64,000 nt of DNA, taken from Escherichia coli. Its GTDB lineage: Bacteria; Pseudomonadota; Gammaproteobacteria; Enterobacterales; Enterobacteriaceae. Location: the NCBI RefSeq assembly GCF_024223415.1, contig NZ_CP100500.1; one strand, 5' to 3'. Below the pieces are notes generated by a model. It was not told the DNA's origin. It saw only the letters and a list, made by a program, of their open reading frames with translations, and ran no database searches. Positions 3,357 through 50,638 of the stretch are shown here, piece after piece. The position numbers were made by a program, and so were the translations under genes. The number at the start of each line of letters is the position of its first letter. The first letter of the stretch is position 1.

Positions 3357-6017
3357 TCATGATTCCTCGCGTTGGGCAAGATTTAGCGTAAGCCCAACGA
3401 TCCCCTCTTCGAGCTGGATATCAACGTTAAACCCGAGCTTGCGGGCCAGCGCCACCATGCCACGATTATTTGGCATCGTAATACCATTCAGACGTTGTAG
3501 TCCGTGATCTCGCGTATAGGTAATCAACTTTTCCATTAAGCGTCGACCTAAGCCTAACCCTTTGAGATCCGAGCGAACCAGCACGGCAAATTCGGCATCG
3601 ATGTTATCAGGGTCGGAGATCGCACGCGTGACGCCGAGGATCTCTTCCGTTTGATCAATACGTCGTACCGCTACAAACGCCATTTCCCGATCGTAGTCGA
3701 TCTGCGTCATGTTGGCTAAATCTTCATGGGTAAATTCGTTGATCTCGCTAAAGTAGCGGTAATAAAGATCTTCTTTGGTGACTCGCGAAATGAATTGCTG
3801 AAGTTGTGGCTCATCTTCTGGCAAAATCGGGCGGAACAAGCAGCGTTCACCGTTTTTCAATTCTACCCATTCTTCCAGCTGATGCGGATAAGGGCGCACT
3901 GCCAGCCGACTCTCGTTATCGCCTTCAAACGGCGCGATATCCAGCGTGACATCCAGCGCGTTAAATTCACTGCCAGAAGCCAGCAAAGGATGAATATCCA
4001 GACGCTGAATTTCCGGGCAATCGACAATCAAGTTGGAAACCTGCACCAGAAGCTGGCTCAAGCCTGCAACATCCAATGGGCGTAGCGCACTGCGCGCACG
4101 AATCTTTTTACTTTTGATCCCCTGAATAACCAGATAGCGGGCCAGGTTCATATTCAGCGGCGGCAGTGCGACGACGGCTTGATCTTCAGGACGCCACTCC
4201 ACACCGCCTTCACCCAGCATGATCAACGGCCCAAAAACCGGATCGTGCTCAACCACAACCCGCAACTCCTGAGCGCCAGCACGGTTAGCCATACTTTGCA
4301 CCAACAGGCCGTGGACCCGCGCCTGCGGCCAGGTCATTTTTACGCGATCGAAAATAGCGTTTGCCGCTTGCTGGACTTCATTGGCTGTACGCAGGTACAG
4401 CATGACGCCCTGAACTTCCGATTTATGTGGAATATCCGGCGAACGCAATTTCAGCGCCACCGGATAACCAATCTGTTCGGCAATATGCACCGCTTCGGTG
4501 CTATCACTGGCAATCCAGGTAGGGAGCGTGTTCATGCCATACGCTTGCAGGATGGGCTGAACTTCATGGGTATCGAGCGACGTAGCCCCTTCGGCAATCG
4601 CCTGTTGCAACAGAAGATGCGCTTTTGCGGTATTGGAAGTCAGATTGCTGGGCAACGCCGGCGTTTCGCGTAGTTGCTTCTGATTACGCCGGTACTCCAC
4701 CATATGCATAAAAGCAGTGATGGTTCCTTCCGGGGTACGGTAGGTCGGCAGCCCGGCTTCGCTGAATAAACGTCGTGCCTCTTGCGAGGAGTGCTCGCCG
4801 CACCAGTTCGTCAGCAGAGAAACATACTTGCTGCGGGGATGATGCTTTACCGCTTCAATTAATGCTTGCGCACTTTCTGTTGCGGGAGCAGCGGCGCTGG
4901 GCGAATGAATAACCATCAGCGCATCAAAATCCTGGCTATGGAGCAGAATGTCCAGCGTTTTGACATAATGCTCGCTGCTGGCGTCATCGCGCAGATCGAG
5001 CGGGTTAGAGATTGCCACATGTCCTGGCAGTGCATCGCGCAGTTTCTGGCAGGTTTCTTCGCTTAGTGTTGCCAGCTTGCCATTGCGTGACCATAAGGCA
5101 TCCAGCGCCAGCGCGGCAGGCGCAGCACCGTTGCTGATAATCATCAACCGGTCGCCACGCAGCGGGCGCATATGGCTAAGGGTTTCTACCGCCGAAAACA
5201 GTTCGTGGGTGTCCTGTACCCGCAACAAACCGGCACGCTGAATAGCCGCATCCCATGCCGGGTCCATTCCTGCCGTCGTGTTGAGCAGTCGCTGTGCCGC
5301 CGGGCTACGTCCGCTTTTAATCACCAGAATCGGTTTATTACGCGAGGCACTACGGGCCGCCGAAACAAAGCGTCGCGCGTCGCTTAACTGTTCGAGATAG
5401 AGCAGGATGGCGCTGGTTTTACTGTCGCGTGCCAGATAGTCAAGCAATTCATCAACGTCGATATCCAGGCTGTCGCCGAGCGCAATAAAGTAGGAAAAGC
5501 CCATCTCACGTTGTTGCGCCCAGTCGAGGATGGTGTTGGAGACGGCAGCCGATTGTGAAATAAACGCCAGCTTGCCGCGTTTAATAGGTACCGGCGAAAA
5601 GCTGGCATTCAGACCTTGCCAGGGAGCCAGTAAACCCAGACTGTTTGGTCCAAGCAGGCGCATGTTATGGCGCAGGGCGCAGGCGCGGAGATCTTCGTGT
5701 TGCGATGCCGGGGCGGAAAGAATAATGCAGGTTTTACAGCCTTTCTCGCCGAGCTCTTCCAGAAGAGCAAGATTACGGCTGGCATTGGTACATAAAACCG
5801 CAAGGTCGGGTGTAAAGGGCAAGCTGGCAATATCCGGCCAGGCCAACACACCCAACACCGCTTTCCAGGCTGGCGTCACCGGGAGTACCGGTCCGTTAAA
5901 GCCTCCCGCCAGCAGGTTACGCATCATCAGGTAACCTGCGCGATTGGGTTTCATCGACGCGCCAATTACCGCTATCGATTTTGGTCGCAGTAGTGCTTCC
6001 AGTCCTCGCTGACTCAT
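3357..6017 (-). CDS. patZ: protein lysine acetyltransferase (CoA-ligase-like domains plus C-terminal GNAT)
   Basis: 886-aa ORF recognised as YfiQ/Pka/PatZ. N-terminal CoA-binding and ATP-grasp-like regions and a C-terminal GNAT motif (RSDLKGLGLGRRLMEKL). Confidence 0.95.
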   Translation of the reverse strand: MSQRGLEALLRPKSIAVIGASMKPNRAGYLMMRNLLAGGFNGPVLPVTPAWKAVLGVLAWPDIASLPFTPDLAVLCTNASRNLALLEELGEKGCKTCIILSAPASQHEDLRACALRHNMRLLGPNSLGLLAPWQGLNASFSPVPIKRGKLAFISQSAAVSNTILDWAQQREMGFSYFIALGDSLDIDVDELLDYLARDSKTSAILLYLEQLSDARRFVSAARSASRNKPILVIKSGRSPAAQRLLNTTAGMDPAWDAAIQRAGLLRVQDTHELFSAVETLSHMRPLRGDRLMIISNGAAPAALALDALWSRNGKLATLSEETCQKLRDALPGHVAISNPLDLRDDASSEHYVKTLDILLHSQDFDALMVIHSPSAAAPATESAQALIEAVKHHPRSKYVSLLTNWCGEHSSQEARRLFSEAGLPTYRTPEGTITAFMHMVEYRRNQKQLRETPALPSNLTSNTAKAHLLLQQAIAEGATSLDTHEVQPILQAYGMNTLPTWIASDSTEAVHIAEQIGYPVALKLRSPDIPHKSEVQGVMLYLRTANEVQQAANAIFDRVKMTWPQARVHGLLVQSMANRAGAQELRVVVEHDPVFGPLIMLGEGGVEWRPEDQAVVALPPLNMNLARYLVIQGIKSKKIRARSALRPLDVAGLSQLLVQVSNLIVDCPEIQRLDIHPLLASGSEFNALDVTLDIAPFEGDNESRLAVRPYPHQLEEWVELKNGERCLFRPILPEDEPQLQQFISRVTKEDLYYRYFSEINEFTHEDLANMTQIDYDREMAFVAVRRIDQTEEILGVTRAISDPDNIDAEFAVLVRSDLKGLGLGRRLMEKLITYTRDHGLQRLNGITMPNNRGMVALARKLGFNVDIQLEEGIVGLTLNLAQREES

Positions 6018-6815: not shown

Positions 6816-7235
6816 TTAAAGAGATTCGTTCAGCCAGCTATCGAACGGCGCTTTCGGTACTGCGCCATTAAGCATGTCGACAACCTGACCGTTTTTGAAA
6901 ATCATGATCGTCGGTATACTACGAATTCCAAAGCGACTGCTCAATTCACGTTCAGCTTCGGTATTCACTTTCACAAAGCGCACTTTACCGCTACGCTCTT
7001 GCGCGACATCTTCAAAAATTGGTGCGAAATTACGGCAGGGGCCGCACCACGGTGCCCAGAAGTCGATCACCACTGGTAGATCATCTTTCAGCAATTTGTC
7101 GAGCGTTTCACCGGTCGCATTAATCACCTCTCCGTCAAACAAGTCGTGACCGCAGCGTCCGCATTTTGCCGCATCTTCGATCCGATCGTCGGGAATGCGA
7201 TTGATGGCCTGACAATGGGTACAAACGGTATTCAT
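6816..7235 (-). CDS. trxC: thioredoxin 2 (N-terminal zinc finger plus WCGPC)
   Basis: 139 aa with CxxC...CxxC followed by the WCGPC active site. Confidence 0.95.
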
Positions 7236-7441
7236 AACTAACCTCGGGATGAGTAAGGAGACTTATCGGCAACGACGCCGGTATGTTTCTAATATGTTAC
7301 ATATTATCGGGGACATTGTTCCAGACAACAATCTGTTTTATTCAATAGGTATGATAGTCGCAGGCTTTGGTACGAAATCATGGCGAACCGCGCGGACTTC
7401 GGGTAATCTGCGCGCTTCGCGCAGCGCTGGTGGAGAAAAGC

Positions 7442-8479
7442 ATGAACGATGAAATGAAAGGTAAAAGCGGCAAGGTCAAAGTGATGTATGTCCGCAGTGA
7501 TGATGATTCTGATAAACGTACCCACAACCCGCGTACCGGGAAAGGGGGCGGGCGTCCAGGAAAATCTCGTGCTGACGGTGGCCGTCGCCCCGCCCGCGAT
7601 GACAAACAGAGTCAGCCCCGTGACCGCAAGTGGGAAGAGTCGCCGTGGCGCACGGTTTCCCGCGCGCCGGGTGATGAAACGCCGGAAAAGGCCGATCACG
7701 GTGGCATCAGTGGTAAAAGTTTTATTGATCCAGAAGTTTTGCGTCGTCAGCGTGCGGAAGAAACCCGCGTCTACGGCGAAAATGCATGTCAGGCACTGTT
7801 CCAGAGCCGTCCGGAAGCGATTGTTCGCGCCTGGTTTATCCAGAGCGTAACGCCACGTTTTAAAGAAGCCTTGCGCTGGATGGCGGCAAACCGCAAAGCG
7901 TACCATGTGGTGGATGAAGCGGAATTGACAAAAGCGTCAGGCACGGAACATCACGGTGGCGTTTGCTTCCTGATCAAAAAGCGTAATGGCACAACCGTGC
8001 AGCAGTGGGTAAGCCAGGCAGGTGCGCAGGATTGCGTACTGGCACTGGAAAACGAATCTAACCCGCATAACCTGGGTGGCATGATGCGCAGCTGCGCGCA
8101 CTTCGGCGTGAAAGGCGTTGTGGTGCAGGATGCGGCACTGCTGGAGTCGGGTGCGGCTATCCGTACCGCAGAAGGCGGCGCAGAGCACGTTCAGCCGATT
8201 ACTGGCGACAACATTGTTAACGTGCTGGATGATTTCCGTCAGGCGGGTTACACCGTAGTGACAACTTCCAGCGAGCAGGGGAAACCGCTGTTCAAAACCA
8301 GCCTGCCAGCGAAAATGGTACTGGTGCTGGGTCAGGAATATGAAGGGTTACCGGATGCCGCACGCGATCCGAACGATCTGCGCGTGAAGATTGACGGTAC
8401 GGGCAACGTTGCCGGGCTGAATATCTCTGTCGCAACCGGCGTTTTGCTTGGTGAATGGTGGCGTCAGAATAAAGCCTGA
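7442..8479 (+). CDS. yfiF: SpoU/TrmH-family RNA methyltransferase with basic N-terminal extension
   Basis: ORF 7367..8479. The ATG at 7442 gives [13 protein letters not shown]..., recognised as YfiF, with C-terminal SpoU motifs. Confidence 0.9.
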
Positions 8480-26141: not shown

Positions 26142-26346
26142 TTACCGTTAAATCATTTTAAAATCAGTAAGTTGTATCGAGTTTGTATGCTTTACTGTCA
26201 TTAACTTACTGTATGTTGATCCAGTGTATTTAACCTTGATAAACTCAGTCCAGCAACACAAAACCGCAACACATTGCATTTTGTCCCGTAGAAAAGACTT
26301 GTATGTGTGAGCTTGTTTTCTGCGCCTACGCAGATAAGGATTGAGA

Positions 26347-27744
26347 ATGCCGCGCACTGTAACACATAATCCGGATAGCCCCAATAATGACGATGTTTTA
26401 GCCGCTTCTGAAAAATGGGACGCCTGTAAACCCCCCTATACCAGCGCACACATGAAAATCTGTGTTGCTGCCGCCAAAATCATCCTCGCTGCTTCCGGCG
26501 TGGCTCGCCGTTCCAAATACGAAAAAGAGAACTATCTCCGTATCGATTTCAGCAAAGCCGGTAAGGTTACATTTTACGCCGAGTTTCCAAAAAAGATGGG
26601 CCTCAAAGGTAAAAAGCTCGGCGAGTGGCCGGAGCTCGCTATCCAGCTGGCGCGCGAAAAAGCACTAGGTATGGCTGACGGTGGACTGCGGGCAGAGTCC
26701 GTACATGCAGCGCTGGAAATGTACCGGGATGACCTCAAAGCCAAAGTAGCCCGTCAGAAGCTGAGCCCGGACAGTTTCACAACCTATGGGGTGCGTATCG
26801 ACCGGATTAAATCAACGTTCGGCGAGCGCGAGGTGTTCAGCGACGTAACATACAGTCGGCTGGTGGAAGTGCTGGACGAGTGGATCGCCACTCGCTCGAA
26901 CAATAACGCCCTGGAGTTGTTTGCCGAGCTCCGTCGGTTCTGGAAGTTCTGCGCACCTACTCTTTGCAACGGCCGCAATGTTGCCGCCAGTCTGCCAGAT
27001 GATTATGTTTCCTCCCGCGTACAGAAACCCACCCCCACACGGCTTTTTACCGATATTGAGTCAATCGCCCGGCTCTGGCTCAATGTTGCCGCCTGCACCT
27101 CTGTACACCAGAAGAATGCTGTTCGCTTCATGATCATCACCGGAGTTCGTCCGATTAATGTCCATAACCTGCGCTGGGACTACGTTCACGAGGAGGTTGG
27201 TGAAATTGTTTATCCGGAAGGGGTTATCGGCATGCGAGGGGCTATGAAAACACAAAAGGCTTTCCGCCTGCCGATAACGCCTGAGATCCGGCGGATTATC
27301 GACGAGCAGAAAGCCTGGCGTGATTCAGTTCCTGAGTGCAACAGGGATTATGTATTTTTGCAGCCACGTGATCCAATGCAGCCATTTTCAAAACGATCAC
27401 TGGATAAGCTGGTGAAAACATACAGCCCGGACGGGGCTGTAAAAGGAATAAAACATGATGGGACTGTTAAAGGGAAAGACGGTGCATTTAATACGATGTG
27501 CCGTAAATTCCTTAAGAGCAATGTTATTGCCTTGATGAAGGAAAGAGGCTATTCCCGATCAGACCGAAGGGAAATCAGCCTCCTTTGCCTTCACCACTCC
27601 AGCAAGTCAGATGACCCGATGGCAGAACATTACGACTTTTCTGATGAGATTTTACAGGAAGAGATTGCGTTAAAGCGCGAAGCTTTCGAGGCTCACGAGC
27701 GGAGCATACTTGCGCAGGTGGCATTGCTACGGCGGCGAGGTTAA
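26347..27744 (+). CDS. int: tyrosine integrase (P4-like, N-terminal arm-binding-type domain)
   Basis: ORF 26341..27744. ATG at 26347 after AAGGA (a later start at 26453 is possible). C-terminal catalytic region with R (HNLRWDY), LCLHHS and AEHY tyrosine. Confidence 0.85.
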   Translation: MPRTVTHNPDSPNNDDVLAASEKWDACKPPYTSAHMKICVAAAKIILAASGVARRSKYEKENYLRIDFSKAGKVTFYAEFPKKMGLKGKKLGEWPELAIQLAREKALGMADGGLRAESVHAALEMYRDDLKAKVARQKLSPDSFTTYGVRIDRIKSTFGEREVFSDVTYSRLVEVLDEWIATRSNNNALELFAELRRFWKFCAPTLCNGRNVAASLPDDYVSSRVQKPTPTRLFTDIESIARLWLNVAACTSVHQKNAVRFMIITGVRPINVHNLRWDYVHEEVGEIVYPEGVIGMRGAMKTQKAFRLPITPEIRRIIDEQKAWRDSVPECNRDYVFLQPRDPMQPFSKRSLDKLVKTYSPDGAVKGIKHDGTVKGKDGAFNTMCRKFLKSNVIALMKERGYSRSDRREISLLCLHHSSKSDDPMAEHYDFSDEILQEEIALKREAFEAHERSILAQVALLRRRG

Positions 27745-30922: not shown

Positions 30923-31188
30923 AATATCCCCTCCAGATTTTTGCTATCCAGCACCACCACGGTAAAGCCCAGTTTTCGCAGACGTTCATGTTCGCGCAAC
31001 TGGTCAGGTCGTGGTGGTTTGCCTGGCGCTTTGCATTCGACAAAGACGATGCGACCGCCGGGTAGCAGGACAATGCGATCCGGTACCGAGCGGCGACCGG
31101 GAGATACGAACTTAAAGGCCACACCGCCAGCTTTTTTCACTTCAGCGACGAGGTGCTTTTCGATAAGGCTTTCACGTTCACAGGCCAT
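30919..31188 (-). CDS. VRR-NUC domain nuclease
   Basis: 89 aa with PDRIVLLPGGRIVFVECK (D...ExK) and the downstream Q..E pattern typical of VRR-NUC. Confidence 0.8.
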   Translation of the reverse strand: MACERESLIEKHLVAEVKKAGGVAFKFVSPGRRSVPDRIVLLPGGRIVFVECKAPGKPPRPDQLREHERLRKLGFTVVVLDSKNLEGIL

Positions 31189-31399
31189 CGTCTGCCACCT
31201 TACGTTTTTCGCGTATGTTCTGCATCAGGCAAAAATCAGATCTGCGCTCACTCCATTCCTGATTGAGCGCGTTACGTGACTGGCGGTTGGCTTTGGCCCA
31301 GACCTTTGCTGCCCGATCGTACGCGCCGGACTGCTCAAGGCACAAAGCCTCCCGTGCAGTCTGGTAATAAAGTGGACTGTCCCGGTATTTAAATGACAT
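31178..31399 (-). CDS. PerC-family-like small regulator
   Basis: 73 aa. LEQSGAYDRAAKVWAKA...NQEWSERRSDFC resembles the PerC/Pch motif (A..LE..G.W.RAA..W......R.W...RR..C). From memory only. Confidence 0.4.
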   Translation of the reverse strand: MSFKYRDSPLYYQTAREALCLEQSGAYDRAAKVWAKANRQSRNALNQEWSERRSDFCLMQNIREKRKVADDGL

Positions 31400-31415
31400 A
31401 TATTTCGATTCCTGT

Positions 31416-31440
31416 AAAAAGCCCCTGACAGTGCAGGGGC
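31416..31440 (-). terminator. rho-independent terminator after the Bro-N gene
   Basis: gcccctg/caggggc stem followed by T5 on the minus strand. An identical copy lies at 35509-35535 after the AntA/KilAC gene. Confidence 0.7.
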
Positions 31441-31893
31441 GGGATTGATTTGAATTAACGAGGTAAGGCTGGTGGAATGTATTTGCCGATGCGGTCTTCT
31501 ATCGTTGGCAGAATACACATGCTGTCGTTAAAGCGATCGTGCAGTTTGTAGACCAGTTTCGAATCAGCCATTTCAAGCGCTGGCATTAACTGAGTCTGCC
31601 AGATTTCGTTGATGCGCCGGAAGTTATGACAGATCGCACGAAGATTATTAATGAACATTTCCTTCTCTGCGTCAGTGACTTCTGTTTGTGTTTTCTGAAT
31701 ACGCTTTGTGCTGCCGTTCCGGTAAAAGCGTTCCTGCGCAGCGACAGCCTCATCCACAGTCGGATAACAGCCAACGTATACGTTTTTCTCGCCGTCCCAT
31801 GCATAAGCCCGGTACGGATTGTATTTGCTCCGGTGATGGTAAATCATCTTCGGCAGACATTCCCTGTGCGGCGCCAGTATCGTGGAGGACTGC
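31416..31893. repeat. ~480-bp direct repeat, copy A (terminator plus 3' half of the Bro-N gene)
   Basis: Aligns colinearly with 35509-35987, roughly nine in ten bases identical by eye. Confidence 0.9.
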
Positions 31894-32231
31894 GGAACGG
31901 CGGTATCTTTCTCGATAAGGTCAAGCACCCAGCGACGAAATTCTTTGGCTACCGGAGTCGTTGCGAATATTGCTACCAGGTGGGCACCGCGCAGGGAGAA
32001 AACTCGCACATCTTTTTCACGTAAGCTATTGTTTATTCCGTTGAACCTCATTTTGAGGTTGATTGACATACCCGGGGTAAACTCATCTGCGTTGCGGTTG
32101 TATATCTGGGTGATTTTATCGCCGCGCGAATACCCCAGCGCAGTAGCCAGCGTTGCGGCGGTGAACCACTGCCTGCCGTTGTGTTCGGTAGTTTCGAGAA
32201 CGTGAGATTTGAATACGAGTTGGGTACTCAT
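31455..32231 (-). CDS. Bro-N domain protein with AP2-like C-terminal module
   Basis: ATG at 32231 (AAAGGA RBS). N-terminus FKSHVLETTEHNGRQWFTAATLATALGY is Bro-N. C-terminus YRAYAWDGEKNVYVGCYPTVDEAVAAQERFYRNG is AP2-like and shared with the 35547 gene. Confidence 0.75.
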   Translation of the reverse strand: MSTQLVFKSHVLETTEHNGRQWFTAATLATALGYSRGDKITQIYNRNADEFTPGMSINLKMRFNGINNSLREKDVRVFSLRGAHLVAIFATTPVAKEFRRWVLDLIEKDTAVPQSSTILAPHRECLPKMIYHHRSKYNPYRAYAWDGEKNVYVGCYPTVDEAVAAQERFYRNGSTKRIQKTQTEVTDAEKEMFINNLRAICHNFRRINEIWQTQLMPALEMADSKLVYKLHDRFNDSMCILPTIEDRIGKYIPPALPR

Positions 32232-32446
32232 AGTTTTATGTCCTTTGCAATATTTTGAATTCACCCCTTTTGAGAGGGCGGTCAGGCGCTCAAAACCGTG
32301 CAAAGTCGGCGGGCGTATTTCCCTTACGGGTATTGTATTAGCCTCACGCCCGACCATTGAATTCTCAATATCGTGGACATAAAAAATCCGCATGTCTGTC
32401 GGGTGCGGTTTCCGCTTTGCAAGGTGTTTTGAGCACCATGACGCGG

Positions 32447-32476
32447 AATATAGCCCCGTTAACGCGACATTGTCAA
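32447..32476 (-). promoter_or_regulatory. sigma-70-like promoter for the Bro-N gene
   Basis: Minus strand TTGACA, 18 nt, TATATT, about 215 nt upstream of the ATG. Confidence 0.5.
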
Positions 32477-32498
32477 ACTGAAGAATTTTACGGATAGC

Positions 32499-32533
32499 AA
32501 AAACCCCCGAACTGGTGAGGAACAGGGGTTTTT
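32499..32533. terminator. hairpin terminator downstream of the TIR-like gene; near-copy of the host acpS terminator
   Basis: aaaaacccccgaactggtgaggaacaggggttttt compared with host aaaacccccgaactggtaaggaacgggggtttt (25203-25235). Confidence 0.6.
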
Positions 32534-32591
32534 ACTTTACTACTGATTTCGCGGTACGCTGATCTCAAACAGACGAGATTATCACCAGACT

Positions 32592-32606
32592 TGTAAAGTA
32601 AGCAAT
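32592..32606. repeat. 15-bp direct repeat TGTAAAGTAAGCAAT (left copy)
   Basis: Perfect copy of 33366-33380. Lies 7 nt outside the TIR-like stop codon. Confidence 0.95.
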
Positions 32607-32613
32607 GGGCGGA

Positions 32614-33357
32614 TTAAGATGAAGCGTTCGCTATCTGAGCGTCGCTGAATGTGAAACCCGCCTGTTTAAGACGCTGGATTAAGCGGGGTACTGTCTCCCG
32701 AACATGGTCATTAAAGTTGAGATAAAGAATACCGGCGGCATCAGAAGGCTGCTCAAGGTGTTGTTTCTGCAGGATGACCACGTTACTGCGACCGAGTGAA
32801 GATAACAGCATCCCCATTTCTAAAACTACGTTTTGGCGTGCCCTGGGCTGGGCTGCTTCCTGGCCGTCTCTTTTGGCGTATCCCACATCATCGGGAGTGA
32901 GGAGAACAATGCCGAAACGCGTCGCTGTCCGTCCCTGACCAATTTCACGTTCAAGCTCTTCAATTATCGTAAGCCCGGTCCCACCGGTATTCTGCAAAAT
33001 AAAATGGTCAGGTAATCCAAGCTTATGAAGAATAAGTTCAAGCTGCTCTTTTGCTACATGATCGTGACCGTGAACGATGAAAATCTTTTTTGCTGGTTCT
33101 TGCATCATGACTGGAGCGTTACCCAGGTGTTCATTAATAATGGCTTCAACCTCAGGTTTTGCCGCTTGTGAACCCTGAATCAAAATCGTTCCGGTGTGGT
33201 AAAGCGTTATGATGGCACCATTACTTAAACGATAACAATCATGACCGGTTTTGTTTTCTTCTCCGGTAACATCAAATCCGGATTCGACTAAAAATTGACG
33301 AAAAGTATCGACAGCGTATGGGTATTTGAGTGCCATTTCATTGAGTTCCTGCATCAT
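32614..33357 (-). CDS. TIR-like domain protein (Cap12/PycTIR-type TIR_like) with TBP-fold-like N-terminal domain
   Basis: 247 aa. C-terminal KIFIVHGHD...IVLLTPDDVG...ARQNVVLEMGMLLSSLGR...PSDAAGILY matches the TIR-like family, including the conserved Glu. N-terminal NGAIITLYHTGTILIQGSQ resembles the RNase HIII N-domain. Confidence 0.7.
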   Translation of the reverse strand: MMQELNEMALKYPYAVDTFRQFLVESGFDVTGEENKTGHDCYRLSNGAIITLYHTGTILIQGSQAAKPEVEAIINEHLGNAPVMMQEPAKKIFIVHGHDHVAKEQLELILHKLGLPDHFILQNTGGTGLTIIEELEREIGQGRTATRFGIVLLTPDDVGYAKRDGQEAAQPRARQNVVLEMGMLLSSLGRSNVVILQKQHLEQPSDAAGILYLNFNDHVRETVPRLIQRLKQAGFTFSDAQIANASS

Positions 33358-33365
33358 TGTGTTCC

Positions 33366-33380
33366 TGTAAAGTAAGCAAT
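33366..33380. repeat. 15-bp direct repeat TGTAAAGTAAGCAAT (right copy)
   Basis: Perfect copy of 32592-32606. Lies 8 nt outside the TIR-like start codon. Confidence 0.95.
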
Positions 33381-33410
33381 AGTTAACAAAGTTGCAACGA
33401 CAACGATCAC

Positions 33411-35477
33411 CTAATCTTTTCTGTAACGGTACGCCTCGAATCCTCCGGCGTTTAGTGGAATGCTCGTGGCCCAGTCAGGAACGGTTGCCAGTAACTGGCT
33501 GAGATGTTCTGCTGAGTAATCGGGTGAGTCAGGGGCCTCACTTATAATTTCATCGTGTACCGTCAGCACAATGCTGTAACCGGCATCTTCGATAAGCGGC
33601 ATGTTTCCGGCCAGAACGTCGCGGGCGGCCGCCTGGGTGACGTTCTCCACCAGCTTTCCGCCGTAGGTTTTGAGTCGTTGCCATTTACGCGAATAAGAGT
33701 TAACACCCATATAGGTGATATCCCCTTTTTCGATAACCGGAGACGGGTAGCATACAGCGCGTCCGGATGGTAGCTGTATGCGCAGCCACGCGCCATCGCG
33801 GCGGATTTTAAGATAACCGCAATACAATGTTTTTTGCGGTGTGGCGATTGCAGTGCGGACGGTGCGCTCCAGTTCGTACCAGAAATCGCAGGTCGCCGGG
33901 TGCGCCCTGCGCCACAGGCGCTTGAGCGAGTCACATGCGATGAATACACGCTCGGACAGGCCAAAGGTCGACTTACGTTTAACCGATTCGTCGTACCAGC
34001 TTTTCGCCTCGCGGATAACATCGCGGGGAATGTTTGGCAGTGCGGCGTTCGCCAGCTCGTCGAGATCGAGACCGTAAACCAGAGCAAAAGTGATGAAAGC
34101 CGATACACCACCTCCATAACCCAGACCGAGTTCCATGACTTTACCGATCTGACGCATGTGTTTATCAACATCATCTGGTGCAATATCGAAAGCTTTTGCA
34201 TACGCCAGTTTATATAAGTCCGGACCCGTTCCGGCGTCGTACTCTCTGAATGCATTCAGTTTCCATTCTTCTCCCGCCAGCCATGCCAGCATACGGCCTT
34301 CAATGTTCGACAAGTCACTTACCACCAGTTTTTTGCCTGTTGGCGCGATAATGCAGCCACGTAACGCTGAACTGGTTAGTTCCATGATATTGTCAAACAG
34401 CAGGTCTGCACATCCGGCTTTCAGTGCTTCGATGCCTTCGTCTATTTGTTCCTGTTTTAGTGAAGGGCGGGGAAGGTTCTGGGGCTGGAATAGCCGTCCG
34501 GCCCAACGACCGGTACGTGACGCCCCGCAGAACTGTAGCGTACCGCGTAAGCGCCCGTCGTGGCTTACGCCTTTCATCAGTGCCTTGTATTTACTGGTGC
34601 TGGTAGTACTGGCCTGCAGGCGGATAGCCAGCAGTTCTTTCACGGCAGATGGTAAATTGGGGTCGGCAATACGACGTTCCAGAGTACTGCGTTGCATGTC
34701 TGGTAGCTCCACACCGTAGGATTCAACAATGTGCTTAATCAACGCGTCCCGTTGTGTGGCTGCCTGCACTTCGCCATCAGTCATTTCCTGTGTACGCTTT
34801 GCCAGGCGCTTTTGCTCCTGGTCTACCGCTTCGATCGCAGCGCGCGCGAGTTGAATGTCCATGCAGACGCCCCGGTCGTTGATCTGCTGATCACGATGCC
34901 AGAGTGCCAGTTCTGTCCCCTGATAATTCCACTTCGGCAGACGTTTATAGACTTCGCGCATTGCCTCGATATCCAGTCCGGCGTAAGCAACAAAGCGCCG
35001 CCATTCTTCCGGGTGGGTTTTGCTGGTGGCCCGGCGCAGTTTGCTGTTTTTCGGGCGTGGTTTGCACAGTAGCTGAATTAGTGACTTGCCTTCTTTATCC
35101 TTCGCTTTGTCCTGCGGGACGCCCAGCACTTCGCAAAGAGCGCCCAGCGCCCCCGGAAGACCATGCGCCAGCGCCTGCACCATTGTGTCGCGCCAGCGTT
35201 CAGTAGCTGGTGACATGTCTGGCATACAATGACGAAGTATCGTGCGGTCAAAGTGCGAATTGTGCGCCCAAACCTCCACATCCGGGTTTTTGAGTGCGAG
35301 ACGTAATTCCGGGGGGATTTTTTCGCCTGCGGTCAGGTCCCACACCTGCACGGGATCGTTATTGATGGCCCAGGCAAAAAGCATAATTTCAGCGCCTTCT
35401 GCATATGCGTGGGTACCGTTTTTTATCGGTATTTCAGAGAAGGTTTCAAGATCGAGCCAGAGAATGTTTGCAGGCAA
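33411..35477 (-). CDS. family A DNA polymerase with 3'-5' exonuclease domain
   Basis: 688 aa. Exo motifs [22 protein letters not shown]. Pol motifs DLSNIEGR (A), [16 protein letters not shown] (B), VHDEII (C). Confidence 0.9.
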
Positions 35478-35508
35478 AACAGGACCCTCCGTAAATTAAA
35501 CGGCTACA

Positions 35509-35987
35509 AAAAGCCCCTGACAGTGCAGGGGCGGGATTGATTTGAATTAACGAGGTAAGGCTGGTGGAATGTATCTGCCGATGCGGTCTTCTATGGTCGG
35601 CAGAATGCACATGCTGTCGCTGAAGCGGTCATGCAACTGGTAAACCAGTTTAGAATCCATTTTTTCGAGAGCAGGCATTAACTGCGCCCGCCAGATTTCG
35701 TTGATGCGCCGGAAGTTATGACAGACGGCGCGGAGATTGTTGATGAACATTTCCTTCTCTGCGTCAGTGACTTCTGTCTGTGTTTTCTGAATACGCTTTG
35801 TGCTGCCATTCCGATAGAAGCGTTCCTGAGCAGCAACAGCCTCATCCACGGTTGGATAGCACCCTACGTAAACGCTCTTCTCTCCGTTCCATGCGTAGGC
35901 TCTGTACGGGTTGTATTTGCTCCGGTGATGGTAAACCATCTTCGGCAGACACTCCCTGTGTGGCGCCAGTATCGTGGAGGATTGCTG
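35509..35987. repeat. ~480-bp direct repeat, copy B (terminator plus 3' half of the AntA/KilAC gene)
   Basis: Colinear with 31416-31893. Includes an identical terminator hairpin at 35509-35535. Confidence 0.9.
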
Positions 35988-36308
35988 GTGCAGTTTGCGT
36001 TCGCACTCGATGAAGTATCGGCGGATCTGGCGGCCTTTTTCGTTGCGCTCCACCATCGCCAGTTCTTTGGCCGTGTCGAGGGTGAGGTGGTAGTCCTTAC
36101 AAAGAACATTTTTACGCTTTCCAGTTTTGGAAAACGTTACGATATAATCCTGATTTTCAACGAATTCATAGTCTGCAATTCGTGATGTAATCCACGCTGC
36201 AAACACTTTCCCTACCCCAAGGAATGCGTGCAGATCGCGAGCATTGCAGAGCAGGGTGGTTTCGTTGGCGATAGCGCCGTTGAAAACGGGGATGAGTTGA
36301 GTTGCCAT
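35547..36308 (-). CDS. AntA/KilAC-type antirepressor-like protein with AP2-like C-terminal module
   Basis: ATG at 36308 after GAGGT. N-terminus NARDLHAFLGVGKVFAAWITSRI...LTLDTAKELAMVERNEKGRQIRRYFIECE is ANT/KilAC-like. The C-terminal ~150 aa are shared with the Bro-N protein. Confidence 0.7.
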   Translation of the reverse strand: MATQLIPVFNGAIANETTLLCNARDLHAFLGVGKVFAAWITSRIADYEFVENQDYIVTFSKTGKRKNVLCKDYHLTLDTAKELAMVERNEKGRQIRRYFIECERKLHQQSSTILAPHRECLPKMVYHHRSKYNPYRAYAWNGEKSVYVGCYPTVDEAVAAQERFYRNGSTKRIQKTQTEVTDAEKEMFINNLRAVCHNFRRINEIWRAQLMPALEKMDSKLVYQLHDRFSDSMCILPTIEDRIGRYIPPALPR

Positions 36309-36470
36309 CACAGTTACCTCTAACGGTGAAATTCACCGCCACCACTGAGTTGCAAATCTCATATGGGTGGCGAACTGACGAGGTTTGCAATACCGGCGTT
36401 AGAGGAAACCGGCGCGCCGAAGCGCCCCCGCCAGCCCGCCATAATGCGAACGTGGCAAAGCTTGCGACAA

Positions 36471-36492
36471 TAAAAAAGACGCTGGCGCGTCT
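36471..36492 (-). terminator. rho-independent terminator inside the noncoding island
   Basis: agacgc/gcgtct stem followed by T6 on the minus strand. Confidence 0.6.
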
Positions 36493-36651
36493 GGTGTCGC
36501 CCCTAACAATTCCGGGTTGCAAATCCCGATCTCCATTTGGGAGATTCGGTGAGCATAAACCGGAAGGGGGCGATGAGTCAATATCGGGGTAGCAGGGCGA
36601 CTGGGTGCTAACCAGAACAATACAGGTAGCTCCGGGCATATTCCCCTTTGC

Positions 36652-46795: not shown

Positions 46796-47329
46796 ATGAA
46801 CACCAAAATCAAATATGGCCTGTCGGCTGCCGTTCTGGCACTGATTGCCGTCGGTGCGCCTGCGCCTGATATTCTCGACCAGTTTCTGGATGAAAAAGAA
46901 GGTAACCACACAACGGCATACCGCGATGGTTCCGGTATATGGACCATCTGTCGTGGTGCCACAATGGTGGATGGTAAGCCCGTCATACCGGGAATGAAGC
47001 TGTCGAAGGAAAAATGCGTTCAGGTTAATGCCATTGAGCGTGATAGGGCGCTGGCATGGGTGGAGCGCAATATTAAAGTACCTCTGACCGAAGCACAGAA
47101 AGCGGGTATTGCGTCATTCTGTCCCTATAACATTGGCCCCGGTAAGTGTTTCCCGTCGACGTTTTATAAGCGGCTTAATGCCGGTGATCGTAAAGGTGCC
47201 TGTGAGTCGATTCGCTGGTGGATTAAGGACGGTGGGCGTGATTGCCGCACACGTTCAAATAACTGCTACGGACAGGTTATTCGTCGTGACCAGGAAGCAG
47301 CACTTGTGTGCTGGGATATCGACAGATGA
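46796..47329 (+). CDS. R: SAR endolysin (T4-lysozyme-type, phage 21 R-like)
   Basis: N-terminal signal-anchor-release segment GLSAAVLALIAVGA followed by the E-x8-D-x5-T catalytic triad (EGNHTTAYRDGSGIWT). Confidence 0.9.
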   Translation: MNTKIKYGLSAAVLALIAVGAPAPDILDQFLDEKEGNHTTAYRDGSGIWTICRGATMVDGKPVIPGMKLSKEKCVQVNAIERDRALAWVERNIKVPLTEAQKAGIASFCPYNIGPGKCFPSTFYKRLNAGDRKGACESIRWWIKDGGRDCRTRSNNCYGQVIRRDQEAALVCWDIDR

Positions 47330-47818: not shown

Positions 47819-47889
47819 CTGTTACGGCCAGGTTATTCGTCGTGACCAGGAAAGTGCATTAGCCTGTTGGGGGATAGATCAGTGAGCAG
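47819..47889. repeat. relic R 3' end fused to the intact Rz start, copy 2
   Basis: ctgttacggccaggttattcgtcgtgaccaggaa... parallels 47262-47334. Confidence 0.8.
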
Positions 47890-48550: not shown

Positions 48551-48852
48551 CCATTACAAAAGCCACTCCCTACAGAGTGGCTTTGATAATGGCTTATACC
48601 CTACACGGGATAACTTAACTGATATCCCTTTTAACGGATAAAGGTATTCAAGCCTGACACATCATGCGCTGTATCGTCGCCGTATTCCCGTATTAACAGA
48701 GACCGTAGCCCGACGGGGAACTCCTTCTGCGAGAGTGTGCGGGAATAATCAAAAACGATGCACACCGGGTTTTTACCGCGCTAATGATTCGCGGGTTTGT
48801 CCCTCATGCTCGCCAGTCCTGTGCGAGGGTGGAAGAAACAGGGCATGTATTC
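48551..48852. repeat. ~300-bp direct repeat, copy 1
   Basis: 48551-48775 matches 50338-50561 with about six mismatches by eye. Weaker similarity continues to 48852 / 50638. The repeat begins with the hairpin agccactc/gagtggct. Confidence 0.95.
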
Positions 48853-50337: not shown

Positions 50338-50638
50338 CCATTACAAAAGCCATTCGCTACAGAGTGGCTTTGATAATGGTTTATACCCTGTACGGGATAA
50401 CTTAACTGATATCCCTTTTAACGGATAAAGGTATTCAAGCCTGACACATCATGCGCTGTATCGTCGCCGTATTCCCGTATTAACAGAGACCGTAGCCCGA
50501 CGGGGAACTCCTTCTGCGCGAGTGTGCGGGAATAATCAAAAACGATGCACACCGGGTTTTACTGTGCTGACAGACGCAGGGTTACTCTCATAGTCGCTTT
50601 TCCGGTGCGATGGTGGAAGAAACCGGGATGTTTATTCA
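50338..50638. repeat. ~300-bp direct repeat, copy 2
   Basis: See copy 1. This copy ends at the stop codon of the ylcI-like gene. Confidence 0.95.

What the first reader, a model, noticed from the sequence alone, without database searches (positions are those of the whole stretch)
32592..33380. Standalone TIR-like effector gene as a single-gene cassette framed by a perfect 15-bp direct repeat inside the phage replication operon
ORF 32614..33357 (247 aa) has a C-terminal ~150 aa that read like the bacterial TIR-like family. That family supplies NAD-degrading effectors to CBASS (Cap12), Pycsar (PycTIR) and Thoeris-type systems. The matching stretches are KIFIVHGHD, LLTPDDVG, ARQNVVLEMGMLLSSLGR with the conserved Glu, and PSD..G. 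The N-terminal ~85 aa (GHDCYRLSNGAIITLYHTGTILIQGSQ) resemble the TBP-fold N-domain of RNase HIII, which could be a nucleic-acid or ligand sensor. No cyclase, SIR2, SAVED or other signalling partner is adjacent. The ORF is bounded 7-8 nt outside its stop and start by an exact 15-mer, TGTAAAGTAAGCAAT (32592-32606 and 33366-33380). It is followed by its own hairpin terminator. This is the signature of a precisely inserted one-gene module between the polymerase gene and a Bro-N gene. A prophage-borne sensor-TIR fusion with no partner is a plausible one-gene abortive-infection or superinfection-exclusion system of an undescribed architecture.
Basis: partly seen in the sequence, partly recalled or inferred. 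Interest (0 to 1): 0.8.

Follow-up and report, generated by a model that had tools for sequence, protein, structure and literature searches.

The report
Prophage one-gene TIR defence candidate (PDC-S35)
A prophage gene next to the phage DNA polymerase encodes a small two-domain protein with a predicted NAD-destroying TIR enzyme, belonging to an already catalogued but untested anti-phage candidate family (PADLOC PDC-S35); relatives point to control through RNase HI or RNA-DNA hybrids, and the 15-base repeat around it is not an insertion footprint.

Summary

The interpretation needs correcting.
- The architecture is not undescribed. It matches PADLOC candidate PDC-S35 end to end (E 8.9e-107), one of 145 untested candidates.
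- The 15-mer is not a target-site duplication. TIR-less relatives lose homology exactly at the polymerase stop codon and carry no copy. Related TIR-bearing prophages carry at most the start-proximal copy.

The gene is autonomous. It is the sole ORF of a Vibrio integron cassette, and 67 of 80 loci have no conserved neighbour. In 13 of 80 species it sits directly upstream of an RNase HI gene, with overlapping stop/start in 10. Its N-domain also occurs on RNase HIII-like proteins and dCTP-deaminase defence proteins, and resembles the RnlA domain that binds RNase HI.

Most likely it is a one-protein abortive-infection NADase whose activation is tied to RNase HI or RNA-DNA hybrids. No experiment exists.

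The parts
32614..33357 (-). CDS of the 247-aa TBP-like + TIR protein (PADLOC PDC-S35 family; the second ATG gives 246 aa)
   Evidence: ORF list. PDC-S35 full-length match, E 8.9e-107. phrog_16442, E 1.9e-77. An identical protein occurs in at least 24 E. coli draft assemblies at the same prophage position.
33118..33330 (-). N-terminal TBP-like domain (aa 10-80): helix, four strands, helix; G47, Q61 and G62 invariant
32710..33087 (-). Cap12/Pycsar-type TIR domain (aa 91-216)
   Evidence: Pfam PF10137, E 5.6e-31. The profile hits the TIR domains of Cap12/TIR-STING (9lmq, 7un8) and PycTIR (8jsj). Foldseek against the TIR-STING structures 9lmq/9lmr gives probability 1.00.
32818..32820 (-). Codon of Glu180 (GAA) in RQNVVLEMG, the predicted catalytic glutamate
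   Evidence: Read from the sequence. Invariant in 51 homologues. Aligned to the Glu of RDNVVFEFG in the Cap12/TIR-STING chains 7un8 and 9lmq.
33358..33410 (-). 53-nt leader between the polymerase stop and the TIR start; it travels with the TIR gene and contains the start-proximal 15-mer and the RBS-like AGGAA
   Evidence: Aligns only in TIR-bearing relatives. TIR-less relatives break at 33412/33413. L001 keeps it at about 80% identity.
33366..33380 (.). 15-mer copy 1 (TGTAAAGTAAGCAAT), inside the TIR leader
   Evidence: Present as 13/15 in ECONIH2. Absent from TIR-less loci.
32592..32606 (.). 15-mer copy 2, inside the 28-nt junction 32584-32611 between the end of TIR homology and the Ant/Bro upstream module
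   Evidence: Homology to L001 ends at 32612 and homology to L015 ends at 32583. This copy is absent from L001 and L003.
32496..32536 (-). Intrinsic-terminator-like hairpin (14-bp stem with flanking A and U tracts, so it could act in both directions)
   Evidence: Shares homology with the antA upstream region of L015.
32447..32476 (-). Sigma-70-like promoter (TTGACA-18-TATATT, 11/12) for the downstream Bro-N gene
   Evidence: It is the only promoter-like site found in 31000-36500.
31455..32393 (-). Bro-N domain gene (downstream neighbour)
   Evidence: Pfam Bro-N, E 6e-08.
33411..35477 (-). Family-A DNA polymerase gene (upstream neighbour, probably co-transcribed)
   Evidence: Pfam DNA_pol_A. No promoter-like site lies between it and the TIR gene.

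Best explanation
The gene encodes a self-contained, one-protein anti-phage (abortive-infection type) effector of the PADLOC PDC-S35 family, carried as cargo in a variable slot of a temperate phage's replication module.

Shown:
- The C-terminal half is a Cap12/Pycsar-type TIR domain with the family's catalytic-type glutamate (E180).
- The N-terminal 80 aa are a TBP-like domain of the RNase HIII-N / RnlA-NRD type.
- The gene needs no fixed neighbour and moves as a single gene.

Inferred:
- In uninfected cells the TIR domain is kept monomeric and inactive by the N-domain.
- On infection the N-domain engages its cue, the TIR domains assemble into head-to-tail oligomers as in TIR-STING, and NAD+ is hydrolysed. 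The cell stops supporting phage growth.
- My preferred cue is RNase HI, or the RNA-DNA hybrids that RNase HI works on. It would come from the host in E. coli and from the cassette's own coupled gene in other phyla.

The 15-mer pair is most likely a lineage-specific recombination scar. A short piece of the TIR leader was duplicated at the joint with the Ant/Bro module. It is not a target-site duplication.
For: TIR identity and active site:
- PF10137, E 5.6e-31.
- E180 is invariant in 51 homologues and aligned to the Glu of the NVVFEFG motif of Cap12/TIR-STING.
- Foldseek probability 1.00 to the TIR-STING structures 9lmq/9lmr.
- Cap12/Pycsar-type TIRs are NADases activated by oligomerisation. 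An isolated TIR of this clade (amoeba TirC) is spontaneously active and toxic, and mutating its putative catalytic glutamate abolishes this (bioRxiv 10.64898/2026.04.30.722052).

Defence association:
- Full-length match to PDC-S35. That family was picked because its members are embedded in BREX, DISARM or type I RM loci.
- Homologues sit in integron cassette arrays beside Mrr-like and PemK cassettes.
- One sits in a P4-like satellite region and one next to a serine recombinase.
- The distribution is patchy: 281 of 185,579 species representatives.

Autonomy:
- The TIR ORF is the sole ORF between two attC-like repeats.
- Clustering of flanking ORFs in 80 loci finds no shared neighbour in 67 of them.

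Sensor role of the N-domain and the RNase HI link:
- The domain profile retrieves a protein with an RNase_HII catalytic domain and PADLOC 'dCTPase' defence proteins that carry the same N-domain.
- A catalytically intact-looking RNase HI gene (PF00075, E 1e-43 to 1e-46) abuts the TIR gene in 13 of 80 loci. Ten of these have overlapping TGATG/TAATG stop-start. The 13 span at least 3 phyla and about 9-10 different genomic contexts.
- In RnlA, the NRD domain is the one that associates with RNase HI, and RNase HI is needed to activate the toxin after T4 infection (PMC5308261).
- The RNase HIII TBP-like domain binds DNA-RNA hybrids (PMC3710099, citing Miyashita 2011).
- SpbK is a precedent for a mobile-element-borne sensor-TIR NADase acting as a one-gene abortive-infection system (PMC11984713).
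Against: - No experiment exists for any member. PDC-S35 is explicitly untested, and 'pdc-s35' occurs in no searchable paper.
- The gene has no promoter-like site of its own and lies 53 nt behind the polymerase gene. It may be expressed with lytic replication genes rather than in the lysogen, which fits superinfection exclusion poorly.
- The N-domain is acidic in this protein (net charge -6) and near neutral family-wide (mean -0.9). This argues against direct nucleic-acid binding and favours a protein ligand.
- Sequence similarity of the N-domain to DUF3378 and RnlA_toxin is below Pfam thresholds, and the PDB profile hits are not significant (E 0.15 and 0.38).
- RNase HI linkage is seen in only 16% of sampled loci and not in Enterobacteria.
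- The TIR half of the AF2 model is only moderately confident (full-length mean pLDDT 73.9).
Confidence: 0.5

Rival explanations
1. The protein serves the phage's own lytic programme or counter-defence. Examples would be consuming NAD+ or NAD-derived signals to blunt host Thoeris/CBASS-type immunity, or tuning host metabolism during replication. On this view it does not protect the lysogen.
For: It sits inside the replication operon, 53 nt after the polymerase gene, with no promoter-like site of its own. It stays directly downstream of the polymerase in three diverged prophage lineages.
Against: The family is overwhelmingly cellular or carried by non-phage mobile elements. It is found in 281 species representatives, in integron cassettes and in a satellite, but in only 4 of 50,697 phage records. 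It was catalogued because members are embedded in BREX, DISARM or RM loci. Its TIR clade supplies cell-killing effectors. Most related prophages do without it: of 158 complete E. coli genomes carrying the polymerase, 9 have the TIR gene.
Confidence: 0.12
2. The TIR domain is a signal generator, as ThsB is in Thoeris. Its effector would be encoded elsewhere in the genome, so the gene would be half of a split system.
For: TIR domains can make signalling nucleotides, and no effector is adjacent.
Against: PF10137-type TIRs are the effector arm of CBASS and Pycsar. ThsB-type models (PF08937) were not hit. No effector-like gene is conserved near any of 80 loci; the only recurrent neighbour is RNase HI. 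As a single-ORF integron cassette it must work wherever it lands.
Confidence: 0.06
3. The gene is a selfish toxin-like or addiction element, or a decaying passenger, with no role in phage defence.
For: No phenotype is known. phrog_16442 is 'unknown function'. Part of the mobile-element association could reflect hitch-hiking.
Against: Purifying selection is very strong. Identity is about 55% across phyla, with 57 invariant columns in 51 sequences that include the catalytic-type Glu. The ORF is intact and identical in at least 24 assemblies. No antitoxin-like partner is present.
Confidence: 0.12
4. The 15-mer pair is a true insertion footprint, either a target-site duplication or a recombination site used by a cassette-moving enzyme.
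For: Exact 15/15 identity placed 7 and 8 nt outside the CDS. Unrelated sequence flanks each copy on both sides. All assemblies with the identical allele keep both copies.
Against: TIR-less relatives have no copy and break homology at the polymerase stop codon, 31 nt beyond the repeat. ECONIH2 has the leader copy only, and vB_EcoM-606R2 has neither. No recombinase or attC-like structure is associated with it in the window. No empty site was found in 5,426 complete E. coli genomes or in JGI metagenomes, though the metagenome positive control was also empty.
Confidence: 0.08

Closest known systems
PADLOC phage defence candidate PDC-S35 (Payne et al., bioRxiv 10.1101/2024.01.29.577857)
   Same: Full-length match to model PDLC05003 (3-245 of 245 positions, E 8.9e-107), same length and same single-gene architecture.
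   Different: Nothing architectural; this protein is a member. The family is only a computational candidate. It is one of 145 untested candidates, and I found no published mechanism or domain dissection.
CBASS Cap12 / TIR-STING and Pycsar PycTIR effectors
   Same: Same TIR subfamily (PF10137), same NVV-x-E-x-G catalytic motif and a similar fold. Activation by oligomerisation is expected.
   Different: There is no STING, SAVED or transmembrane sensor domain and no adjacent cyclase. The NCBIfam Cap12 equivalog scores are 33 and 32 bits against a cut-off of 450. The sensor here is a TBP-like domain, so the trigger is not a cyclic nucleotide made by a partner.
SpbK of ICEBs1 (Bacillus subtilis)
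   Same: A one-gene, mobile-element-borne abortive-infection protein with an N-terminal sensing region and a C-terminal TIR NADase, activated by direct recognition of a phage component (PMC11984713).
   Different: No N-domain resemblance to SpbK was seen here, and SpbK's TIR was not compared. SpbK senses the SPbeta portal protein, whereas the cue proposed here is RNase HI or RNA-DNA hybrids.
RnlA / LsoA (RNase LS) toxins
   Different: The effector is a HEPN RNase rather than a TIR NADase. RnlA is held by an antitoxin (RnlB), and no antitoxin gene accompanies the TIR gene.
dCTP deaminase defence proteins (PADLOC 'dCTPase' model PDLC02373)
   Same: Some members (P0214, P0232, about 610 aa) carry the same N-terminal TBP-like domain in front of a metabolite-depleting effector and are single-gene systems.
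   Different: The effector is a cytidine-deaminase-type domain that depletes dCTP, not NAD+.
RNase HIII
   Same: Its N-terminal TBP-like (DUF3378) domain is the best structural match, with a shared G-(S/T)-x-x-x-Q-G-K strand motif.
   Different: The catalytic domain is an RNase H fold, not a TIR. RNase HIII is a housekeeping enzyme, not a mobile cassette.

Membership tests
Pfam PF10137 CAP12/Pycsar-type TIR domain | HMM score above the curated gathering threshold | tested here: met
   107.5 bits against 24.7, E 5.6e-31, aa 91-216 covering 1-118 of 119 profile positions.
Pfam PF10137 CAP12/Pycsar-type TIR domain | Conserved catalytic glutamate in the NVV-x-E-x-G helix | tested here: met
   E180 is invariant in 51 homologues and aligned to the Glu of RDNVVFEFG in 7un8 and 9lmq.
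Pfam PF10137 CAP12/Pycsar-type TIR domain | TIR (flavodoxin-like) fold resembling solved Cap12 TIRs | tested here: met
   Foldseek against 9lmq/9lmr: probability 1.00, E 1.7e-4, about 155 aligned columns. The TIR half of the model is only moderately confident.
Pfam PF10137 CAP12/Pycsar-type TIR domain | NAD+ hydrolase activity that depends on oligomerisation | not testable with these tools
   Needs biochemistry. No multimer prediction was available.
PADLOC PDC-S35 (candidate single-gene defence) | Full-length match to the family HMM with a one-gene architecture | tested here: met
   PDLC05003: E 8.9e-107, aa 11-247 to profile positions 3-245 of 245. No conserved partner in this window or in 67 of 80 loci.
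PADLOC PDC-S35 (candidate single-gene defence) | Demonstrated anti-phage activity | not testable with these tools
   The source paper lists these candidates as untested. No paper mentions PDC-S35.
CBASS (Cap12 effector) / Pycsar (PycTIR effector) | Adjacent CD-NTase or pyrimidine cyclase gene | tested here: not met
   The neighbours are DNA pol A and Bro-N. No cyclase-like family is conserved in the flanks of 80 loci.
CBASS (Cap12 effector) / Pycsar (PycTIR effector) | Cyclic-nucleotide sensor domain (STING, SAVED or similar) fused to the TIR, and the equivalog score | tested here: not met
   The N-domain is TBP-like. NCBIfam Cap12 models score 33.4 and 31.9 bits against a cut-off of 450.
Thoeris (ThsB TIR + ThsA) | ThsB-type TIR (PF08937) with an adjacent ThsA (SIR2 or Macro/SLOG) effector | tested here: not met
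   No PF08937 hit and no ThsA-like neighbour. A SIR2-family gene lies on the other side of the polymerase in one relative only (ECONIH2) and is not linked to the TIR gene elsewhere.
RNase HIII-N / RnlA-NRD TBP-like domain (Pfam DUF3378, RnlA_toxin) | Pfam model above the gathering threshold | tested here: not met
   DUF3378 scores 15.5-17.8 bits against 27. RnlA_toxin's best member scores E 8.6e-5, with 8 of 29 members hit. One homologue (P0031) carries a precomputed PF15935 hit.
RNase HIII-N / RnlA-NRD TBP-like domain (Pfam DUF3378, RnlA_toxin) | TBP-like fold (helix, four antiparallel strands, helix) closest to RNase HIII N-domains | tested here: met
RNase HIII-N / RnlA-NRD TBP-like domain (Pfam DUF3378, RnlA_toxin) | Binding of RNA-DNA hybrid or of RNase HI | not testable with these tools
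   Only indirect evidence: RNase HI gene coupling in 13 of 80 loci. The acidic charge of this N-domain favours a protein ligand.
Insertion with target-site duplication / site-specific cassette | Relatives lacking the insert carry exactly one copy of the repeat at the empty site | tested here: not met
   TIR-less relatives L002, L025, L026 and L015 have no copy with up to 3 mismatches. Homology ends at the polymerase stop codon. No empty site was found.

The most novel reading that the evidence does not exclude
The TBP-like N-domain is a docking module for RNase HI, either the host enzyme or the cassette's own coupled copy. The protein would be a TIR immune receptor that reads the state of RNase HI or RNA-DNA hybrids. 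Invading replicons that load, titrate or inhibit RNase HI would release or scaffold the TIR domains into NAD+-destroying filaments. The same sensor module would be shared by RnlA/LsoA toxins and by a subset of dCTP-deaminase defence proteins. That would define a common 'RNase HI-guard' input for three different effector chemistries.
Probability: 0.25. Interest if true: 0.7.

Novelty: new member of a known kind. Interest (0 to 1): 0.45.

Why it matters
If the gene works as proposed, it is one of the smallest complete anti-phage systems (about 250 aa) and is carried by a temperate E. coli phage. It would give a tractable entry into an untested PADLOC candidate family that is spread thinly over many bacterial phyla.

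The comparative result adds a concrete, cheap-to-test idea about what such one-protein systems sense. The N-domain is shared with RNase HIII-like proteins and dCTP-deaminase defence proteins and resembles an RnlA domain. An RNase HI gene directly follows the TIR gene in 13 of 80 species. Testing this would also help explain the long-standing, unexplained requirement of RNase HI for RnlA activation.

The finding also shows that the slots on either side of the polymerase gene in this prophage family are exchange points for cargo (TIR, SIR2, Ant/Bro, methyltransferases, HNH genes).

Tried and rejected
- Empty-site search. Megablast and blastn of the region against 5,426 complete E. coli genomes found TIR-bearing relatives (9 genomes, about 88% identity) and many TIR-less ones. 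None has a single 15-mer at an empty site.
- Exact-pattern scans. The hypothetical empty junction was absent from JGI metagenomes. The filled junction was absent from IMG/VR and from JGI metagenomes. The leader junction was absent from IMG/VR. Because the filled-junction positive control also failed, these scans say nothing either way.
- 15-mer as a dispersed regulatory site. Rejected: only two extra matches at 3 mismatches in 64 kb, which is within chance.
- A promoter for the TIR gene. The consensus scan found none between the polymerase and the TIR gene. By eye there is a TTGCAA-17-TACTTT arrangement overlapping the 15-mer, but it is weak and would leave no leader, so I did not adopt it.
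- CBASS, Pycsar or Thoeris membership. Rejected for lack of a cyclase or ThsA and lack of a sensor domain.
- Direct nucleic-acid binding by the N-domain as the sole cue. Weakened by its net charge of -6.
- Literature. 'PDC-S35', PF10137, COG4271, TIR + TBP-like, TIR + RNase HIII, integron + TIR and RnlA + TIR gave no paper that characterises this architecture. Getz et al. 2025 on V. parahaemolyticus integron defence cassettes is not in the searchable library. I could not check whether the Vibrio homologue was tested there.
- The full-length Foldseek search did not resolve the N-domain, so I modelled the domain separately.
Full report
**1. What is in the sequence**

ORF 32614..33357 on the minus strand encodes 247 aa. 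It lies 53 nt downstream of a 688-aa family-A DNA polymerase gene (33411..35477) and 220 nt upstream of a Bro-N gene (31455..32393).

The 15-mer TGTAAAGTAAGCAAT is exact at 32592-32606 and 33366-33380, 7 and 8 nt outside the stop and start codons. No third copy exists with up to 2 mismatches, and 0 of 100 shuffles gave two copies. An exact direct repeat of at least 15 nt within 2 kb turns up somewhere in 12% of simulated 64-kb sequences. The repeat is therefore notable for where it lies rather than for existing.

A 14-bp hairpin with flanking A and U tracts sits at 32496-32536. It is followed by the only good sigma-70-like site of the region (TTGACA-18-TATATT, 32476-32447), which faces the Bro-N gene.

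The window's left part is E. coli chromosome and the prophage starts at the integrase gene (26341-27744). In at least 24 draft assemblies the identical protein sits in the same prophage beside yfhL-acpS-pdxJ-recO-era.

**2. The protein**

- TIR half. Pfam gives PF10137 (CAP12/Pycsar TIR), E 5.6e-31, aa 91-216. A 51-sequence alignment spanning several phyla keeps about 55% identity. It has 57 invariant columns, including VHGHD, TPDD, RQNVVLEMG (E180) and PSD.
- Active site. A profile of that alignment hits only three distinct PDB sequences: two Cap12/TIR-STING proteins and PycTIR. E180 lines up with the Glu of RDNVVFEFG.
- Fold. The AF2 model (mean pLDDT 73.9) matches the TIR-STING structures 9lmq/9lmr with Foldseek probability 1.00.
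- Sequence-level support for the N-domain is weak but points the same way. DUF3378 scores E 0.004-0.02, RnlA_toxin is hit by 8 of 29 members (best E 8.6e-5), and the top two PDB profile hits are RNase HIII and LsoA, neither significant.

**3. It is already catalogued**

PADLOC model PDLC05003 (PDC-S35) matches positions 3-245 of 245 at E 8.9e-107. PDC systems are 145 untested 'phage defence candidates' chosen because members are embedded within BREX, DISARM or type I RM loci.

PHROGs lists the family as unknown function, and NCBI names it 'TIR domain-containing protein'. I found no paper that names PDC-S35 or describes a TBP-like + TIR protein. 'Undescribed architecture' is therefore wrong. 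'Uncharacterised' is right.

**4. Is it a one-gene module?**

Yes, on several counts.

- In related E. coli prophages the gene order is int, helicase, VRR-NUC, ANR, [slot A], pol, [slot B], DUF2815, DUF2800.
  - Slot A holds the TIR gene (ECONIH2; phage vB_EcoM-606R2), a Bro-N/Ant gene (GF4; O121), or a 67-aa gene (BH100).
  - Slot B holds AntA (this window), a SIR2-family gene (ECONIH2), HNH/NUMOD4 genes or hypotheticals.
- Of 158 complete E. coli genomes with this polymerase, nine carry the TIR gene.
- In Vibrio parahaemolyticus the homologue (P0036) is the only ORF between two attC-like repeats of about 120 nt (5892-5984 and 6771-6892 of L010). That makes it a single-ORF integron cassette.
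- Another homologue is the second cassette after an intI-like integrase, followed by Mrr-like and PemK cassettes.
- Others lie in a P4-like satellite region (Klebsiella) and beside a serine recombinase (Ralstonia).
- Only 4 of 50,697 phage records encode a homologue. By contrast, 281 of 185,579 species representatives do, scattered over many phyla.

**5. The 15-mer is not an insertion footprint**

- In TIR-less relatives, homology to the window stops at 33412/33413, the polymerase stop codon. This holds even where the polymerase 3' end is 97.7% identical. Only TIR-bearing relatives align through the 53-nt spacer. The start-proximal copy is therefore part of the TIR gene's own leader.
- TIR-less loci L002, L025, L026 and L015 have no copy with up to 3 mismatches.
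- ECONIH2 has the leader copy at 13/15 but nothing after its stop codon, and vB_EcoM-606R2 has neither.
- On the other side, homology to ECONIH2 ends at 32612. Homology to the upstream region of an antA gene in a different slot of strain JNEC-KY171 covers 32304-32583, including the hairpin and the promoter.
- The stop-proximal copy thus sits in a 28-nt joint (32584-32611) between two modules, and it matches this lineage's own version of the leader exactly.

The simplest reading is a lineage-specific recombination scar made when the Ant/Bro module was joined behind the TIR gene. The mechanism cannot be recovered from the data. No empty site was found. The metagenome and IMG/VR scans lacked even the filled junction and so are uninformative.

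**6. A partner after all, in part of the family**

I clustered all ORFs within about 5 kb of the gene in 80 species-representative loci. Apart from antisense shadows of the TIR gene, one family recurs. It is a roughly 165-aa RNase HI (PF00075, E 1e-43 to 1e-46), with its DEDD residues visible by eye in the L052 copy. It lies immediately downstream on the same strand in 13 loci.

- In ten of these loci the TIR stop and the RNase HI start overlap (TGATG or TAATG).
- The 13 come from Chloroflexota, Verrucomicrobiota and Acidobacteriota, among others.
- They occupy at least three positions in a crude NJ tree.
- They share flanking genes only within two groups of close relatives, which leaves about 9-10 independent contexts.
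- All 13 keep the N-domain.

The remaining 67 loci, and this window, have no conserved neighbour.

**7. The N-domain is a shared module**

A profile of the N-domain against 1.84 billion representative proteins gave 969 hits at E up to 0.001. Besides TIR proteins and fragments, they include:

- P0213 (1,234 aa): the N-domain, then an RNase_HII-family catalytic domain, then a DinG-like helicase.
- P0214 and P0232 (about 610 aa): the N-domain in front of a cytidine-deaminase domain. Both match PADLOC's 'dCTPase' defence model at E 7e-173 and 6e-169.

From the literature:

- RnlA/LsoA toxins carry TBP-like N-domains, and the RNase HIII TBP-like domain binds DNA-RNA hybrids (PMC3710099).
- RNase HI associates with RnlA's NRD independently of RNA. 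It stimulates RnlA and is required for its activation after T4 infection (PMC5308261).

**8. Mechanism proposed**

Shown: a Cap12-type TIR with an intact catalytic motif, a TBP-like N-domain, autonomy as a single gene, and association with mobile elements and defence loci.

From established knowledge: Cap12/Pycsar-type TIRs are NADases switched on by oligomerisation, and a bare TIR of this clade is constitutively toxic. SpbK shows that a sensor-TIR fusion on a mobile element can be a complete abortive-infection system.

Inferred: the N-domain restrains the TIR until it meets its cue. TIR filaments then deplete NAD+ and abort infection. The cue I favour is RNase HI or the hybrids it acts on, for these reasons:
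- the fold;
- the RnlA precedent;
- the RNase HI gene coupling;
- the acidic charge of this N-domain (-6), which suits a basic protein ligand better than nucleic acid.

Weak points:
- No experiment exists.
- The coupling is seen in only 16% of loci.
- The gene has no promoter-like site of its own. It may be expressed with the replication genes rather than in the lysogen.

**9. Verdict**

The 'new architecture' and 'insertion signature' claims do not hold. The gene is a new member of a catalogued, untested candidate family. The added value is a specific, testable hypothesis for its input signal. Interest is moderate.

Noticed in passing
L052 5016-6295; L080 4920-6214; also L063, L082, L083, L087, L089, L095, L096, L100, L101, L103, L105: In 13 of 80 species-representative loci an RNase HI gene (PF00075) directly follows the TBP-like + TIR gene. 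The stop and start overlap (TGATG/TAATG) in 10 of them. The 13 span at least 3 phyla and about 9-10 genomic contexts.
   Followed up: yes
Proteins P0214, P0232 (about 610 aa) and P0213 (1,234 aa): The same N-terminal TBP-like domain is fused to a dCTP-deaminase-type defence effector (PADLOC dCTPase, E 7e-173). In P0213 it is fused to an RNase_HII-family domain plus a DinG-like helicase that matches the type IV CRISPR-associated DinG models.
   Followed up: partly
window 31416-31715 and 35508-35807 (weaker similarity extends to about 32000 and 36090): A direct repeat of at least 300 nt (90% identity) is formed by the C-terminal halves and terminators of the Bro-N (312 aa) and AntA (254 aa) genes. 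It brackets the polymerase + TIR pair. Recombination between the copies would delete both genes.
   Followed up: partly
L001 (E. coli ECONIH2) 6970-8472: In this relative the slot on the other side of the polymerase gene holds a 500-aa SIR2-family gene. The polymerase is then flanked by two putative NAD-targeting cargo genes (TIR and SIR2). Both slots look like cargo hotspots across the prophage family.
   Followed up: partly
L010 5892-6892 (V. parahaemolyticus); L021-L024: The homologue is a single-ORF integron cassette bounded by attC-like repeats of about 120 nt. In another taxon it is the second cassette after an intI-like gene, next to Mrr-like and PemK cassettes.
   Followed up: yes
window 48551-48773 and 50338-50560; also 47273-47296 and 47829-47852: A direct repeat of roughly 220 nt, made of four exact blocks of 15-127 nt, occurs at 1,787-nt spacing on the far side of the prophage's repressor region. 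A separate exact 24-mer pair lies 556 nt apart. Not examined.
   Followed up: no
window 35513-35532 and 31421-31440 (-): Identical terminator-like hairpins (GCCCCTGCACTGTCAGGGGC + T-run) follow both antirepressor-type genes. One lies only about 35 nt upstream of the polymerase start, so transcription into pol-TIR would need read-through, antitermination or an undetected promoter.
   Followed up: no
bioRxiv 10.64898/2026.04.30.722052 versus window aa 55-76: Amoeba TirB/TirD (Cap12-clade TIRs acquired from bacteria) are reported to have a small N-terminal domain 'resembling a partial KH domain'. The N-domain here also gives a weak KH_DEAH11 hit (E 0.04-0.15). The amoeba proteins might descend from this TBP-like + TIR family. 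I had no sequences to test this.
   Followed up: no
L004 and L007 5323-5838 and 7414-7932: Free-standing HNH / NUMOD4-HNH endonuclease genes sit next to DUF2815 and overlap the start of the polymerase gene in some prophages carrying the identical TIR allele. Homing-type endonucleases may contribute to the mosaicism around the polymerase.
   Followed up: no
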